Origin: the human T2T-CHM13v2.0 reference genome, Homo sapiens
Assembly (NCBI RefSeq): GCF_009914755.1
Contig: NC_060925.1
DNA length: 64,000 bases
Strand: one strand, 5' to 3'
Numbering within the stretch: the first letter of the stretch is position 1; every line of letters begins with the position of its first letter. Of this stretch, positions 29,311-34,420 are shown piece by piece. The notes below the pieces were generated by a model. The model had not been told where the DNA came from. It saw nothing but the letters and a program-made list of their open reading frames with translations, and ran no database searches. Made by a program: the position numbers and the translations under genes.

Positions 29311-29780
29311 TTTTTTTGTTTTTGTTTTTGAGACAAGGTCTTACTCTCATCCAGGCTGGAGTGCAGTGGCATAATCAAGGCTCACTGCAACCTTGACCTC
29401 CCAGGCTCAGGCGATCCTCTCACTTCAGCCTCCCAAGTAGCTGGGACTACAAATGTGTGCCACCGTGCCCACCTAATACCAAGTTTTTAATTTTTTTTTT
29501 TTTTTTTTTTTGAGACGGGGTTTCCCTCTGTCACCCAGGCTGGAATGTGGTGGTGTGGCCACAGCTCACTGCAGTCTCAACCACCTGGGCTCAAGTGATT
29601 CCCTCACCTCAAAAACCCAAGTAGCTGGGACCACAGGTGTGCACCAACATGCCCCACCAGTTTTTTAATTATCTGTACAGATGAGATCTCGCCACATTGC
29701 CCAGGCTGGTCTTGAACTCCTGGGTTCAAGTGATCTTCCCACAATATTGGGATTATAGGTGTGAGCCAGTGCACCTGGCC
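29311..29780 (-). mobile_element. Two AluJ-like elements in intron 3, immediately downstream of exon 3
   Basis: Poly-T-first Alu sequence. Confidence 0.9.
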
Positions 29781-29848
29781 TAGTTTTATAAATATTTATG
29801 TTTGAAAGATACAACTTGTTTTGAAAAATTTAAATACTACACACTCAC

Positions 29849-29941
29849 TAGAACGTGGATTCCTTCTTTTTCAACTGGAGCTTTATCATATGTAGCATCA
29901 CAAACTCGAACCAAAGTCGTCACTCCATACTTCTTAAGTTC
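29849..29941 (-). CDS. PTP4A2: PRL-2 exon 3 (aa 33-63, [31 protein letters not shown])
   Basis: Acceptor T15-aaag|G, donor CTA|gtgagt; 93 nt, phase 0-0; contains C46. Confidence 0.97.
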
Positions 29942-32925
29942 CTTTAAAAAAAAAAAAAAATTATAATGGAACTTGTTTTTGAAACCTACAGCCAAAAATG
30001 TAGAAATGTACTATTATAGGCCGGGCGGGGTGGTTCACGCCTATAATCCCAGCACTTTGGGAGGCCTGAGGCGGGCATATCACAAGGTAAGGAGTTCGAG
30101 ACCAGCCTGACCAACATAGTGAAACCCCGTCTCTATTAAAAATACAAAGATCAGCTGAGTGTGGTGGTGCGGGCCTGTAATCCCAGCTACTCAGGAGGCT
30201 GAGGCAGGAGAATCGCTTGAACCCAGGAGGCAGATATTGCAGTGAGCCGAGATCGTGCCACTGCACTCCAGCCTGGGCGACAGAGCGAGACTCCGTCTCC
30301 AAAAAAAAAAAAAAAAAAAAAAAAAAAAAGAAATCTACTATTATAAATTAAAACAATGAGATATCATTTTTAGACAAAGATCAGAATTGTTCTCACTGTG
30401 GTTATATATTCAATGGACACTCATGAAATCTCAGTGGCAGTGTGAGACTCACCTTTCTAAAGGGCAGTTTGGTAGCATAACGTGAAAACTTACACAAAAG
30501 TTCACATACACTGCAACCTAAAAATTCTACTTCTGGGAGTTTATACAAAAGAAATAATTAAAGACATATACAAATATTTAGGTAACAGCACATTCACCAC
30601 AAACTGGAATGGTGAAAAATTAGAAACCACATTAATGGTCCAAAAATAAGGGAATGATTAAAGAAGTATGGCACATCCATATAGTGAACACTATGACAGC
30701 TATAAAAACAATACCAAGGAAGATGGGGAAAGATTTTAAAAAATATATAGTGTGATCCTATCTGTATGTGTATTTATGAATACACACAGATATATGCAGA
30801 GAAAAACATCTAGAAGCCAGTTATTAACAATTAAATGTTGTTAAATTCTTTTTGCTTATCTGTATCTTTATATTTTTATGAAATAAACATGCTTTTTTTA
30901 AAGAAATAAAATTCTGAAATTAAGAAAAAAAGTGGTATATTAAAAAGACAGCTAATGCAGTTATAGCCAGAAGCCTTGCTCCTTTAAAACTCTCCCTACG
31001 GTGAATCCCTAACCCAGTGACTACCTATCTTCAAGGGGCTACCAATATCTTTTTTATAGTTGCAGGAGGACAGTGGCCTGTGCCACTTCTGGAGACTATG
31101 GCCAAGGAATCCACAGGTTGAAAATAGTACCACATAATTCAGCCAGGCTTAAAGGTGACTGAACAATCTGAGGGCATACAGGCGTAGAATCAACTTGTAC
31201 GCTGTGTATACAAAGTTAAGAAGCTCAGGGAATTATAAGTATAAATAAGCAGGCACAGTGATATCCTATAAGAAGGGTCCATCATTTAGTTATCTAAAGT
31301 GTAAAATTATTTTAATTGCTAAAGGACTTCATTTTTCACAAAAAGGCCTTCTTATAATACAGACTCAAGAAAGGTAGAAGTATTGTCAGGAATTTTAAAA
31401 ATGTTTCAAAATACAAATAAAATCCCATTAAAATAAACTCTGTAATAGCCATTCATTGAAAAGTTGCGATAAAATTTTTTATGGTATTTGTGACCTTAAG
31501 CAAGTCAAATCCTCTTTTGGTCTCAGTTTTCCCATCTATAAAATGAAAATCACTAAGAGTTCACCCACCTTTCTAACTCTACTCCATAAATACAGCAAGA
31601 AAAATCATTTAAACTCAACAACCCAAGAATGATTAAAAAGCTTATGTTCTGGTCAGGCACAGTGGCTCACGCCTGTAATCCCAGCATTTTGGGAGGCCGA
31701 GGAAGGCGGATCACGAGGTCAAGAGATCAAGACCATCCTGGCCAACACGGTGAAACTTCGTCTCTACTAAAAATACAAAAATTAGCTGGGTGTGGTGGCG
31801 CGCGCCTGTAGTCCCAGCTACTTGGGAGCTGAGGCAGGAGAATCGCTTAAACCTGGGAGGTGCAGGTTGCAGTGAGCCAAGATCGTGCCACTGCACTCCG
31901 TCTCAAAAAAAAAAAAAAAAAAAGGGCTGGGCACGGTGGCTCATGCCTGTAATCCCAGCACTTTGGGAGGCCGAGGTGACAGATCACAAGGTCAGGAGAT
32001 CAAGACCATCCTGGCTAACATGGTGAAATCCCGTCTCTACTAGAAATACAAAAAATTAGCCGGGAGTGGTGGCAGGTGCCTGTAGTCCCAGCTATCAGGG
32101 AGGCTGAGGCAGGAGAATGGCGTGAACCCGGGAGGGGGAACTTGCAGTGAGCCGAGATAGTGCCACTGCACTCCAGCCTGGCGAAGAGCGAGACTCCATC
32201 TCCCAAAAAAAAAAAAAAACTTATGTTCAAATGCTTGCTCAAAGAAGTACAAAGAGTTTTTTCTCCTACCAATAGAAAAAATATTAAGGATCTGACATAA
32301 AAATACTACCTCTACCACCTTTCCTTCACCCAAGTTTCTGGACCCTTGTATACGATTATTACAACGAAGTAGTCTGGGGGTGCCTTTTCATCAAAGGTGG
32401 TTAGAATATCTGAAGTACATACAGAATGGTTTTTAGTGTCAGACACCTAGGCAAGTACATTAGTTCCACCACATACTATGTGCCATTAGGCAAATTACTA
32501 AATGGCTCTGAACCTGTTTCCTCATTGGTAAGAGGGAAATAATGGTAGCTACACCTCATAGGGTTTTTGTATTTGTGACCTTAAGCACAAACACTGCTCG
32601 TTGCATAATGTGTAACATTGTTTGTTATAATGCTAAGTGCATATCGTGGTCAATAAATGTTAATTATCATTACTGAATGTTTGACCAAAAAAACCTGTCA
32701 ATAAATGTAGAAAGAACACAGAGAAAACAGTACTAGATATCTCTACAGTCCCCAAATTTCACAAAATGTTCTTGAAAAAATCTGCTGTAACTAACCCAAC
32801 CCAATTCAAACCAGGATTGGCAGGATGACTCCAAATACAGAATAAATGGCTTTGTGCTAAGAGAATTTTTTAATGGGATTTTACCTAGAAATCAATCCAA
32901 AAAGTAGACCATGCCACAATCTTAC

Positions 32926-33021
32926 CTCTGTGAACTTGTTGAGAGTAGCATTGGTAGGGTTGTGAGTTATCAGAAAACGCATGTTCTCATAGGAGATCTC
33001 CACAGGGGCTGGACGGTTCAT
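32926..33021 (-). CDS. PTP4A2: PRL-2 coding part of exon 2 (aa 1-32, [10 protein letters not shown]...NKFTE)
   Basis: ATG at 33021 (gccataATGa, A at -3); 96 nt; donor GAG|gtaag at 32925; phase 0. Confidence 0.97.
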
Positions 33022-33614
33022 TATGGCAAATAAAAAGTGTGAGCGTGCGTGTGAGTGTGATGGGGAAAGTGAAAAAAAAAAATCAATAAATCTTGAAATG
33101 TTTCACAGCAGAAAACATTAAAAAGACCACTAAAATGCCTATTATCAATCAGTGTTTTCTCTATTCAACTTGTTTATTCCTTATGAAGCTTCTCTCTTCA
33201 AGATAAGCAAAGTATTTAGAATCCACTTGAATCCAAATTCAATTTGGGCCTCAATTTCTGCAGATGGATACCTTCGGACTCCAAAAAATCCAACTACATA
33301 CAAAACTTAAGCAGCCTTTACTACATTTAGGCACTAGTGAGACAAGTTAAAAGTGTAGGTCACTTTCCACTTGTTTACTTGATGCTTAATTTTACTGGAG
33401 TCATTAAAAGAAATATGCTTGCAATTAAAAAAAAAAAAAGCCAACTATTTCTGAGGCCAGTCTCGGTGTCCAGGAGTCTTCAAGGCAATGTTAATTATGG
33501 CACATAGAACCTCCAAGCTCACTTGTCAGCGAAAATGCTGTGCTGAGCCTGGCAGAAGTCTGCCCTCACACTCAGAATCGCCATAAATGTGCAACGTATA
33601 TTCCAACGAAAAAC
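33022..33614 (-). other. PTP4A2: 5'UTR part of exon 2 (whole exon 33614-32926, 689 nt)
   Basis: Strong acceptor cttttcttctccag|GTTTTTCG at 33615/33614; repeat-free; several upstream ATGs. Confidence 0.85.
33519..33614 (-). CDS. uORF part 2 (VFRWNIRCTF-MAILSVRADFCQAQHSIFADK*), internal ATG at 33584
   Basis: Open from the first base of exon 2 to TGA at 33521-33519. PRL-1/2 mRNAs are known to carry a conserved Mg-responsive uORF; identity with this one is inferred. Confidence 0.7.
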   Translation of the reverse strand, partial: VFRWNIRCTFMAILSVRADFCQAQHSIFADK

Positions 33615-33800
33615 CTGGAGAAGAAAAGAATAAGTAAAATGAACTAGAGGCTGATGGCACAGTAAACACAAATGCCTGAAGTCAAAATACATTCTTTATA
33701 AGCCCAAAGCGATGTGAAATGTCACCAATTATACGTTATTACCATCTATGAAGAATTGGATAAAGGGGTATTATGAAGAGTTTTAAAAATCAGAGACTCG

Positions 33801-34420
33801 AGCCGGGTGTGGTGGCTGATGCCTGTAATCCTAGCACTTTGGGAGGCTGAGGCAGGCAGATCACCTGAGGTCGGGAGTTTGAGACCAGCCTGATCAACAT
33901 GGAGAAACCCCGTCGCTACTAAAAATACACAATTAGCCAGGTGTGGTGGTGCATGCCTGTAATCCCAGCTACTCAGGAAGCTGAGGCAGGAGAATCGCTT
34001 GAACCCGGGAGGTAGAGGTTGTGATGAGCCAAGATGGCACCATTGCACTCCAGCCTGGGCAACAAGAGCAAAACTCTGCCTCAAAAAAAAAAAAAAAAAA
34101 AAAAAATCAGAGACTTGAGCCAGGTGTGGTGGCTGATGCCTGTAATCCTAGCACTTTGGGAGGCTGAGGCGGGCAGATCACCTGAGGTCGGGAGTTCAAG
34201 ACCAGCCTGGCCAACATGGAGAAACCCCGTCTCTACTAAAAATACAAAATTAGCCAGGCATGGTGGCGCATGCCTGTAATCCCAGCTACTTGGGAGGCTG
34301 AGGCAGGAGAATTGCTTGAACCTGGGAGGTGGAGGTTGCAGTGAGCTGAGATTGTGCCACTGCACTCCAGTCTGGACAATGAGAACAAAACTCTGTCTCA
34401 AAAAACAAAAAAACAAAAAA
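33801..34420 (+). mobile_element. Tandem AluS (Sp/Sq-like) pair in intron 1
   Basis: Two full Alus separated and flanked by aaaaatcagagact(c/t)ga. Confidence 0.92.

What the first reader, a model, noticed from the sequence alone, without database searches (positions are those of the whole stretch)
29311..34420. Exon 2-3 circle would fuse the PRL-2 N-terminus in frame to its own uORF peptide
Seen: minus-strand Alus ~70 bp past the exon 3 donor (29311-29780) and plus-strand Alus ~190 bp before the exon 2 acceptor (33801-34420) form an inverted pair around exons 2-3. Established: this geometry promotes back-splicing; I recall reports of a circPTP4A2 (exon content needs verifying). Seen: exon 3 ends in phase 0 (CAC GTT CTA) and exon 2 opens in the uORF frame (GTT TTT CGT TGG). 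A 782-nt circle therefore reads from the normal ATG through PRL-2 aa 1-63 into VFRWNIRCTFMAILSVRADFCQAQHSIFADK*, 94 aa without the WPFDD loop, C101 or CAAX. An exon-2-only circle (689 nt) keeps the same frame (63 aa). Inference: circularisation turns the regulatory uORF into the C-terminus of a PRL-2 fragment, possibly a Mg-dependent stalling product. Frame agreement alone has a 1-in-3 chance probability.
Basis: partly seen in the sequence, partly recalled or inferred. Interest (0 to 1): 0.8.

Follow-up and report, generated by a model that had tools for sequence, protein, structure and literature searches.

The report
circPTP4A2 reading frame ends in uORF
The exon 2-3 circle is the already published circular RNA circPTP4A2, and its predicted 94-residue reading frame does run into the gene's upstream-ORF peptide, but nothing shows that this frame is translated, so it mainly warns how to read peptide evidence.

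Summary
Exons 2 (689 nt) and 3 (93 nt) give a 782-nt circle. Its frame from the PRL-2 ATG crosses the back-splice junction in the uORF frame and stops at the uORF stop, giving 94 aa (63 aa for an exon-2-only circle). Inverted Alus sit 68 nt and 186 nt from the two splice sites.

The circle is already known. circPTP4A2 / hsa_circ_0007364 is 782 nt, exons 2-3, Sanger-verified, RNase R-resistant and cytoplasmic. Mouse makes it with the same junction.

It belongs to the common class of circles that carry the host start codon, for which a large study found no translation. Frame agreement has a chance probability of about 0.17. That a circle ORF can share its stop with a uORF was noted in 2017.

A 2022 screen listed this circle as coding with LC-MS/MS support. 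However, only 1 of its 11 tryptic peptides is circle-specific; the rest also arise from linear PRL-2 or the uORF microprotein.

The Alu pair is real but is not the strongest pairing.

Verdict: correct arithmetic on a known circle. Translation and magnesium-dependent stalling are unsupported. Interest is low.

The parts
32926..33614 (-). PTP4A2 exon 2 (689 nt): 593 nt of leader, then the first 96 nt of the coding sequence. It is the first exon of the circle, and its acceptor is used in back-splicing.
   Evidence: annotation table in the finding
29849..29941 (-). PTP4A2 exon 3 (93 nt, 31 codons, ends in phase 0). Its donor is used in back-splicing.
33019..33021 (-). PRL-2 start codon, 593 nt into exon 2. 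It is the start of the circle ORF.
33519..33584 (-). Annotated uORF (LOC128031832; 21 codons plus stop). It forms the last 21 residues and the stop of the circle ORF.
   Evidence: PMC13275300 passage: uORF c1riboseqorf55 in PTP4A2, annotated as coding by GENCODE on its evolutionary profile.
33585..33614 (-). Ten stop-free linker codons between the exon 2 start and the uORF ATG, in the uORF frame.
29481..29780 (-). Full-length Alu, sense in the pre-mRNA, in intron 3, 68 nt past the exon 3 donor.
29311..29477 (-). Partial Alu, sense in the pre-mRNA, in intron 3.
33773..34431 (+). Two Alus (about 33773-34103 and 34116-34431), antisense in the pre-mRNA, in intron 1. They begin about 186 nt before the exon 2 acceptor.
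   Evidence: mask list in the finding
34493..34796 (-). Alu, sense in the pre-mRNA, in intron 1. It competes by pairing with its two intron 1 neighbours and with the intron 2 Alus.
30026..30372 (+). Alu, antisense in the pre-mRNA, in intron 2. It is a partner in the best inverted pair of the region (I1: 234 nt, 84%), which brackets exon 2 alone.
31647..32228 (+). Two further Alu copies, antisense in the pre-mRNA, in intron 2.
51961..51963 (-). ATG in exon 1, in frame with the uORF across the exon 1/exon 2 junction. In the linear mRNA it would give a 39-codon extended uORF that includes the 10 linker codons.

Best explanation
The feature is circPTP4A2 (hsa_circ_0007364), a published, stable, cytoplasmic exonic circle. 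It forms by back-splicing the exon 3 donor to the exon 2 acceptor.

Because exon 2 carries the host start codon, the circle belongs to the common 'AUG circRNA' class. Any such circle has an ORF that crosses the junction and stops somewhere in the leader. Here that frame happens to be the one of the conserved, magnesium-sensitive uORF, which lies 30 nt inside exon 2. The ORF therefore ends at the uORF stop.

I read this as a passive result of exon phases and of a leader conserved for the linear mRNA's own regulation. I do not read it as a selected coding arrangement. The circle is most likely not translated to a meaningful extent.

Flanking inverted Alus may help circularisation in humans but are probably not required. 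The 18.3-kb upstream intron and conserved splice sites are the likelier drivers.

Shown: the sequence arithmetic, the Alu map, and the existence and properties of the circle (from papers). Inferred: lack of translation, lack of selection on the frame, and a minor role for the Alus.
For: Arithmetic:
- 782 nt; a 94-aa ORF ending at the uORF stop.

Identity with the published circle:
- Reported as exons 2-3 and RNase R-resistant (PMC8291787, passages).
- 782 bases, amplified by divergent primers from cDNA only, cytoplasmic (PMC13342306, passages).
- 782 nt, exons 2-3, Sanger-confirmed (PMC12858719, passages).
- hg19 chr1:32381495/6-32385259. That span is 3,764 nt, against 3,766 nt in the window.

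Class behaviour:
- 735 of 2,175 human circRNAs in one data set hold the host start codon (PMC5387670, passage).
- For AUG circRNAs, about 500 human RiboSeq samples, 35 million spectra and three over-expressed circles gave no sign of translation. The stops of their ORFs showed no selective conservation (PMC6487579, abstract and passages).

Chance:
- Probability 0.17 for frame agreement plus an open linker.

Prior notice:
- That a circle ORF may share its stop with a uORF, which confounds conservation, was noted in 2017 (PMC5387669, passages).

Alus:
- The duplexes that bracket exons 2-3 (-331.6 and -317.8 kcal/mol) are weaker than the pairing inside intron 1 (-479.2, -473.1). They are also weaker than the pair that brackets exon 2 alone (-486.6). 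This comes from 15 sense-by-antisense pairs computed. Controls gave -127 to -162.
- Of the 25 inverted pairs shown, 4 bracket exons 2-3, 8 lie within intron 1, 8 bracket exon 2 and 5 bracket exon 3.
- Mouse makes an exon 2-3 circle. The 21-nt junction shRNA used there equals the last 6 nt of human exon 3 plus the first 15 nt of human exon 2 (PMC11017462, passages).
Against: - PMC8913576 (passages) lists hsa_circ_0007364 among 57 circRNAs with coding potential. It also lists it among the 9 for which LC-MS/MS 'found the special sequences'. The peptide is shown only in supplements that I could not open. No false-discovery control appears in the passages I read ('false discovery': 0 occurrences).
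- The circle is cytoplasmic and keeps the whole exon 2 leader (28% A, 35% T), so internal initiation cannot be excluded.
- The junction is identical in mouse over the 21 nt available. The frame relation at the junction is therefore at least not primate-specific.
- By the 2,300-nt criterion of PMC6487579 this circle counts as Alu-dependent (about 254 nt total distance), which is atypical for conserved AUG circRNAs.
- I could not look at any ribosome-profiling or proteomics data myself.
Confidence: 0.78

Rival explanations
1. Low-level, non-functional translation. A few ribosomes enter the circle internally, start at the PRL-2 AUG and make the 94-aa chain. The product has only about a third of the phosphatase domain and lacks the prenylation site. 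It is unstable and has no role.
For: The ORF is intact, with an AUG and a stop. The circle is cytoplasmic. There is an LC-MS/MS claim in PMC8913576. [quoted passage not shown]
Against: Only 1 of 11 tryptic peptides would prove it, and I could not see which peptide was reported. The class-wide RiboSeq and proteomics results were negative. No circle from the PTP4A2 locus is among the 39,509 rows (16 or more junction reads) of the stored part of that study's ENCODE table. This suggests low abundance, or loss in their mapping filters.
Confidence: 0.15
2. Circularisation turns the regulatory uORF into the C-terminus of a PRL-2 N-terminal fragment. This fragment is a regulated, magnesium-dependent (stalling) product with a function.
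For: The frame agreement and open linker are real. The uORF is magnesium-sensitive and conserved (PMC10083557, passages). GENCODE treats it as coding on its evolutionary profile (PMC13275300, passage). The junction is the same in mouse.
Against: - The chance probability is 0.17.
- Conservation of the uORF and its stop is explained by the linear mRNA (general point in PMC5387669).
- The fragment ends before WPFDD, Cys101 and the CAAX box. It therefore lacks the catalytic pocket. From recalled structural work, not re-read here, that pocket also binds the CNNM partners.
- The passages I could read describe no stalling mechanism.
- 'circPTP4A2' together with 'ORF' gave 1 paper, a review that treats the circle as a STAT3 sponge.
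Confidence: 0.04
3. Non-coding decoy. Because the circle carries the exon 2 part of the magnesium-sensing leader, uORF included, it competes with the linear mRNA for whatever reads that element. It thereby tunes PRL-2 translation. The ORF across the junction is irrelevant.
For: The circle holds 593 nt of leader including the uORF. It is stable and cytoplasmic.
Against: This is pure inference. No paper that I read tests it. Published functions are miRNA sponging and STAT3 or YBX1 binding. The uORF region shows no fold beyond shuffled controls (z = -0.30). The circle-to-mRNA ratio is unknown to me.
Confidence: 0.03

Closest known systems
circ-ZNF609 (Legnini et al. 2017, PMC5387670)
   Same: An exonic circle that contains the host start codon. 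Its ORF runs from that AUG across the back-splice junction to a stop available only after circularisation. It is cytoplasmic. The same paper also lists Circ-PTP4A2 at the same hg19 coordinates as a conserved, cytoplasmic circle.
   Different: circ-ZNF609 was shown on puromycin-sensitive polysomes and tested with tagged constructs. Nothing of this kind was found for circPTP4A2. The ZNF609 stop lies 3 nt past the junction. Here it lies 93 nt past it and is the stop of a known uORF.
AUG circRNAs (Stagsted et al. 2019, PMC6487579)
   Same: It contains the annotated start codon and part of the true ORF. The upstream intron is long (18,325 nt). The circle is seen in mouse.
   Different: That class is described as mostly free of proximal inverted Alus. 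Here inverted Alus lie at about 254 nt total distance. The downstream intron is 4,067 nt, under their 6,500-nt cut-off. The circle is not in the stored part of their table.
Circle ORFs whose stop is shared with a uORF (Pamudurti et al. 2017, PMC5387669)
   Same: This is exactly the arrangement described there. [quoted passage not shown] Here the uORF frame even reaches an ATG in exon 1.
   Different: That was a statistical remark on fly and mammalian sets. Here the uORF is an individually studied, magnesium-sensitive element that GENCODE annotates as coding.
Magnesium-sensitive uORF of PRL-1/PRL-2 (Hardy et al. 2019, cited in PMC10083557)
   Same: The same 21 codons at 33584..33519.
   Different: The known role is in the capped linear mRNA, where the uORF represses PRL translation when magnesium is abundant. 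No role in a circle has been described. The primary paper was not available.
Inverted-Alu-driven exon circularisation
   Same: Sense Alus after the downstream donor and antisense Alus before the upstream acceptor, both within 200 nt of the splice sites.
   Different: Stronger competing pairs exist within intron 1 and around exon 2 alone. The same circle is reported in mouse.

Membership tests
Exonic circRNA circPTP4A2 / hsa_circ_0007364 | Made of PTP4A2 exons 2 and 3; 782 nt | tested here: met
   689 + 93 = 782 nt from the window. Papers give 782 nt and exons 2-3. One paper numbers the exons 1 and 2.
Exonic circRNA circPTP4A2 / hsa_circ_0007364 | Back-splice junction joins the exon 3 donor to the exon 2 acceptor at canonical AG/GT sites | tested here: met
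   AG before 33614 and GT after 29849. The published 21-nt junction shRNA equals exon 3's last 6 nt plus exon 2's first 15 nt, compared by eye.
Exonic circRNA circPTP4A2 / hsa_circ_0007364 | RNase R resistance; product from divergent primers on cDNA only | not testable with these tools
   Reported in passages of four papers. I did not see the figures.
AUG circRNA (Stagsted 2019) | Contains the annotated start codon of the host gene | tested here: met
   ATG at 33021..33019, inside exon 2.
AUG circRNA (Stagsted 2019) | Long flanking introns (over 6,500 nt) and no proximal inverted Alus (typical of the class, not obligatory) | tested here: not met
   Upstream intron 18,325 nt, but downstream intron 4,067 nt. 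Inverted Alus at 68 + 186 nt.
Alu-dependent circRNA (criterion of PMC6487579) | Inverted Alu pair within 2,300 nt total distance of the circularising splice sites | tested here: met
   About 254 nt. Pairs I9, I11, I15 and I22. Duplexes -331.6 and -317.8 kcal/mol, against -127 to -162 in controls.
Alu-dependent circRNA | Circularisation falls when the Alus are removed | not testable with these tools
   Indirect evidence against strict dependence: mouse is reported to make the same exon 2-3 circle.
Translated circRNA | ORF with AUG and stop that spans the back-splice junction | tested here: met
   94 aa in the 782-nt circle; 63 aa in the 689-nt circle.
Translated circRNA | Ribosome association: puromycin-sensitive polysomes, or phased footprints over the junction | not testable with these tools
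   No such data for this circle turned up in the papers I searched. Class-wide RiboSeq was negative.
Translated circRNA | A junction-specific peptide detected | tested here: inconclusive
   PMC8913576 claims a 'special sequence' by LC-MS/MS, but the peptide is only in supplements I could not open. Only 1 of 11 tryptic peptides is circle-only.
Circle ORF sharing its stop with a uORF (Pamudurti 2017) | [quoted passage not shown] | tested here: met
   The circle ORF ends at 33519..33521, the stop of the annotated uORF. General description.

The most novel reading that the evidence does not exclude
The circle ORF is really translated. Its uORF-encoded tail then carries the magnesium-sensing property of the leader into a protein-coding frame. 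Output of a catalytically dead PRL-2 N-terminal fragment, or ribosome occupancy on the circle, would follow intracellular magnesium. If so, part of the peptide evidence now credited to the PTP4A2 uORF microprotein would come from a circular RNA.
Probability: 0.04. Interest if true: 0.6.

Novelty: new member of a known kind. Interest (0 to 1): 0.2.

Why it matters
The components are all in print:
- the circle (37 papers hold its name);
- the magnesium-sensitive uORF;
- a listing of the circle as potentially coding;
- the general remark that circle ORFs can end at uORF stops.

I did not find the explicit statement that the 'unique' tail of the circPTP4A2 ORF is the uORF peptide. The searches were:
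- 'circPTP4A2' + 'ORF': 1 paper;
- 'PTP4A2' + 'uORF': 4 papers, none about circles by title or passage;
- 'hsa_circ_0007364' + 'translat': 24 papers;
- 'circRNA' + 'uORF' + 'backsplic': 26 papers, of which 20 were listed and one was read.

The value is practical.
- A peptide from the last 21 residues cannot prove translation of the circle, because the linear mRNA makes the same peptide.
- Equally, peptide evidence for the uORF microprotein cannot exclude the circle.
- Only the 9-residue junction peptide, or footprints across the junction, discriminate.

This bears on a published LC-MS/MS claim and on any future 'circPTP4A2-94aa' study.

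Tried and rejected
- The primary uORF paper (Hardy 2019) was requested by DOI and by PMC id and is not held. What I say about the uORF rests on passages of PMC10083557 and PMC13275300. A structural paper on PRL-CNNM binding (PMC7450121) is also not held, so the statement that CNNM binds the catalytic pocket is recalled, not checked.
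I asked for no further supplements. The supplementary figures and table of PMC8913576, which show the ORF and the matched peptide of hsa_circ_0007364, were therefore not seen. This leaves open which peptide that study detected.
- I looked for the circle in the supplements of PMC6487579. 'PTP4A2' has 0 occurrences in 10 files. There is no row within hg19 chr1:32.370-32.405 Mb among the 39,509 rows of the stored part of Table S2, nor in Table S4. Table S2 is cut at 2 million characters, at 16 junction reads, so absence means 'not among the more abundant', not 'absent'. One search failed for a file-name reason and was repeated.
- Rfam found 0 families at gathering score in 20000-53000 on both strands.
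- The first 115 nt of exon 2 fold at -31.6 kcal/mol, against -30.65 +/- 3.15 for shuffles (z = -0.30; 68 of 200 shuffles fold as well). A structured element there has no support.
- Other ORFs: only one ATG ORF of 80 aa or more overlaps 29311-34420, on either strand (34034..34279, plus strand, inside an Alu).
- Search one search was badly framed (13,218 papers) and gave nothing usable.
- I did not fold or model the 94-aa product. It is a joined sequence that the DNA does not give letter for letter.
- A cross-species or paralogue test of the frame relation was not possible. No vertebrate genomes are held by the tools.

Full report
**What is in the sequence**

On the minus strand, exon 2 of PTP4A2 (33614..32926, 689 nt) follows an AG acceptor. 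Exon 3 (29941..29849, 93 nt) is followed by a GT donor. The PRL-2 start codon lies 593 nt into exon 2. The coding parts of exons 2 and 3 are 96 nt and 93 nt, so exon 3 ends in phase 0. The annotated uORF (33584..33519, 21 codons) starts 30 nt into exon 2, so exon 2 opens in the uORF frame.

A script joined the exons by coordinates.
- The 782-nt circle has one long ORF from the PRL-2 ATG: 63 PRL-2 residues, 10 linker residues, the 21 uORF residues, then the uORF stop. That is 94 aa.
- An exon-2-only circle (689 nt) gives 63 aa.
- Circles that also take in exon 4 or exon 5 enter a different leader frame and stop after 13 codons.

The full PRL-2 read from the window is 167 aa. WPFDD sits at 65-69, Cys101 lies in the P-loop and the CAAX box is at the end, so the fragment lacks all three.

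**Alu geometry**

A blastn of one local Alu against the window, together with the inverted-repeat scan, gives the following order on the pre-mRNA:
- a sense Alu in intron 1 (34493-34796);
- two antisense Alus in intron 1 (34116-34431 and 33773-34103);
- exon 2;
- three antisense Alu copies in intron 2 (31647-32228 and 30026-30372);
- exon 3;
- two sense copies in intron 3 (29481-29780 and 29311-29477).

It lies 68 nt from the exon 3 donor and 186 nt from the exon 2 acceptor. It is not the only pairing, and not the best. The scan found 30 inverted pairs and showed 25:

| What the pair brackets | Pairs (of 25) |
|---|---|
| Exons 2-3 | 4 (best: I9, 128 nt, 80%) |
| Nothing (both arms within intron 1) | 8 |
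| Exon 2 alone | 8 (best: I1, 234 nt, 84%) |
| Exon 3 alone | 5 |

Duplex energies rank the same way:

| Pairing | kcal/mol |
|---|---|
| Bracketing exons 2-3 | -331.6 and -317.8 |
| Within intron 1 | -479.2 and -473.1 |
| Bracketing exon 2 alone | -486.6 |
| Full intron 3 Alu with the nearest intron 2 Alu (brackets exon 3) | -331.8 |
| Controls (same orientation, shuffled) | -127 to -162 |

The geometry therefore permits the exon 2-3 circle but does not single it out.

**The circle is already known**

Thirty-seven papers in the library hold the name circPTP4A2. The passages I read say the following.
- hsa_circ_0007364 comes from exons 2 and 3 and resists RNase R (PMC8291787).
- It spans 782 bases, is amplified by divergent primers from cDNA only, outlives the mRNA after actinomycin D, and is mainly cytoplasmic (PMC13342306). 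This paper numbers the exons 1 and 2.
- It is 782 nt, from exons 2-3, and Sanger-confirmed (PMC12858719).
- Its hg19 coordinates are chr1:32381495/6-32385259. That is a span of 3,764 nt, against 3,766 nt between the same two exon ends in the window.

Legnini et al. 2017 already listed it as a conserved cytoplasmic circle in human and mouse myoblasts.

In mouse, a stroke study reports back-splicing of exons 2-3. The 21-nt junction shRNA it used equals the last 6 nt of human exon 3 plus the first 15 nt of human exon 2 (compared by eye). Mouse has no Alus. The human Alu pair is therefore unlikely to be essential. The 18,325-nt upstream intron fits the 'long flanking intron' route described for conserved circles.

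**Is the frame agreement meaningful?**

The chance is 1/3 for the frame, times 0.51 for ten stop-free codons given the leader's composition. That makes 0.17. In all three frames the leader closes within 13 to 31 codons, so a short foreign tail is inevitable.

Circles holding the host start codon are common: 735 of 2,175 in one human set.

Pamudurti et al. 2017 stated the general case. [quoted passage not shown] This locus is a textbook instance. In the main transcript the uORF frame stays open back to an ATG in exon 1 (51963..51961), in a weak context with T at -3 and C at +4. The linear mRNA could therefore already encode a 39-codon version that includes the ten 'linker' codons.

The uORF itself is conserved and magnesium-sensitive in the linear mRNA (PMC10083557). 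GENCODE has annotated it as coding on its evolutionary profile, with HLA-I ligand evidence (PMC13275300). Its conservation needs no circle.

**Is the ORF translated?**

I found no polysome, RiboSeq or tagged-reporter data for this circle.

The broad study of AUG circRNAs used about 500 human RiboSeq samples, 35 million spectra and three over-expressed circles. It found no translation and no selective conservation of the circle-ORF stops. The PTP4A2 circle is not among the 39,509 rows of the stored part of that study's ENCODE table.

Against this stands one screen in colorectal cancer cells (PMC8913576). It kept hsa_circ_0007364 among 57 circles with predicted coding potential and among nine for which LC-MS/MS 'found the special sequences'. 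The peptide appears only in supplements that I could not open, and no false-discovery control is mentioned in the text.

An in-silico digest shows why this claim is ambiguous. The circle ORF gives 11 tryptic peptides.
- Seven are PRL-2 peptides.
- One is a single lysine.
- Two are shared with the exon-1-initiated uORF.
- One, the 14-residue C-terminal peptide, is shared with the annotated uORF.
- Only the 9-residue junction peptide is specific to the circle.

**Most likely explanation and rivals**

- Best reading (confidence about 0.78): a known, stable AUG circRNA whose junction-crossing ORF ends at the uORF stop. This follows from exon phases and from a leader conserved for linear-mRNA regulation. 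Translation is absent or negligible.
- Low-level translation into an unstable product with no function: about 0.15.
The fragment stops before the catalytic pocket. Nothing I could read speaks of peptide-dependent stalling. The arrangement is expected by chance about one time in six.
- A non-coding decoy role for the magnesium-sensing leader carried on the circle: about 0.03. This is pure inference.

**Novelty and value**

The circle, the uORF, the 'coding potential' listing and the general overlap of circle-ORF and uORF stops are all published. The specific remark that the 'unique' tail of the circPTP4A2 ORF is the uORF peptide did not turn up in my searches. Those searches cover open-access text only, not supplements or databases such as circRNADb or TransCirc.

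The use of the remark is as a caution. Only junction-spanning evidence can assign a peptide or a footprint to the circle rather than to the linear mRNA's uORF.

Other checks on the surroundings found nothing further:
- no Rfam family in 20000-53000;
- no fold signal at the uORF;
- no other ORF of 80 aa or more, apart from one inside an Alu.

Noticed in passing
window 51961-51963 (-), with 33585-33614 (-): An ATG in exon 1 of NM_080391.4 is in frame with the annotated uORF across the exon 1/exon 2 junction. It would give a 39-codon uORF: 8 codons from exon 1, 10 linker codons and 21 uORF codons. The context is weak (T at -3, C at +4). The two short alternative first exons (51708-51771 and 51731-51771) also keep this frame open, but without an ATG.
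   Followed up: partly
window 30085-30318 (+) and 34493-34726 (-): This is the strongest inverted Alu pair near the exons (234 nt, 84%; duplex -486.6 kcal/mol). It brackets exon 2 alone and predicts a 689-nt circle with a 63-aa ORF. I saw no report of such a circle in the papers I read.
   Followed up: partly
window 25651-25781 and 23993-24067 (-), joined to exons 2-3: Hypothetical circles of exons 2-4 (913 nt) and 2-5 (988 nt) would read into a different leader frame and stop after 13 codons. The products would be 120 and 145 aa and would keep Cys101.
   Followed up: no
window about 52013-52056 (-), exon 1: An imperfect GCC/CCG triplet run lies in the 5' leader. In the uORF frame it reads as a proline run, upstream of an in-frame stop.
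   Followed up: no
window 33040-33100 and 33425-33445 (-), exon 2 leader: The leader between the uORF and the PRL-2 ATG has long T runs (about 13 and 11 nt) and a CA-rich stretch just before the main ATG. The leader is 63% A+T.
   Followed up: no
literature, not the window: No circle from the PTP4A2 locus appears among the 39,509 rows (16 or more junction reads) of the stored part of the ENCODE circRNA table of PMC6487579. This is despite many papers calling it abundant or up-regulated. Possible reasons are low abundance or loss in strict mapping filters.
   Followed up: partly
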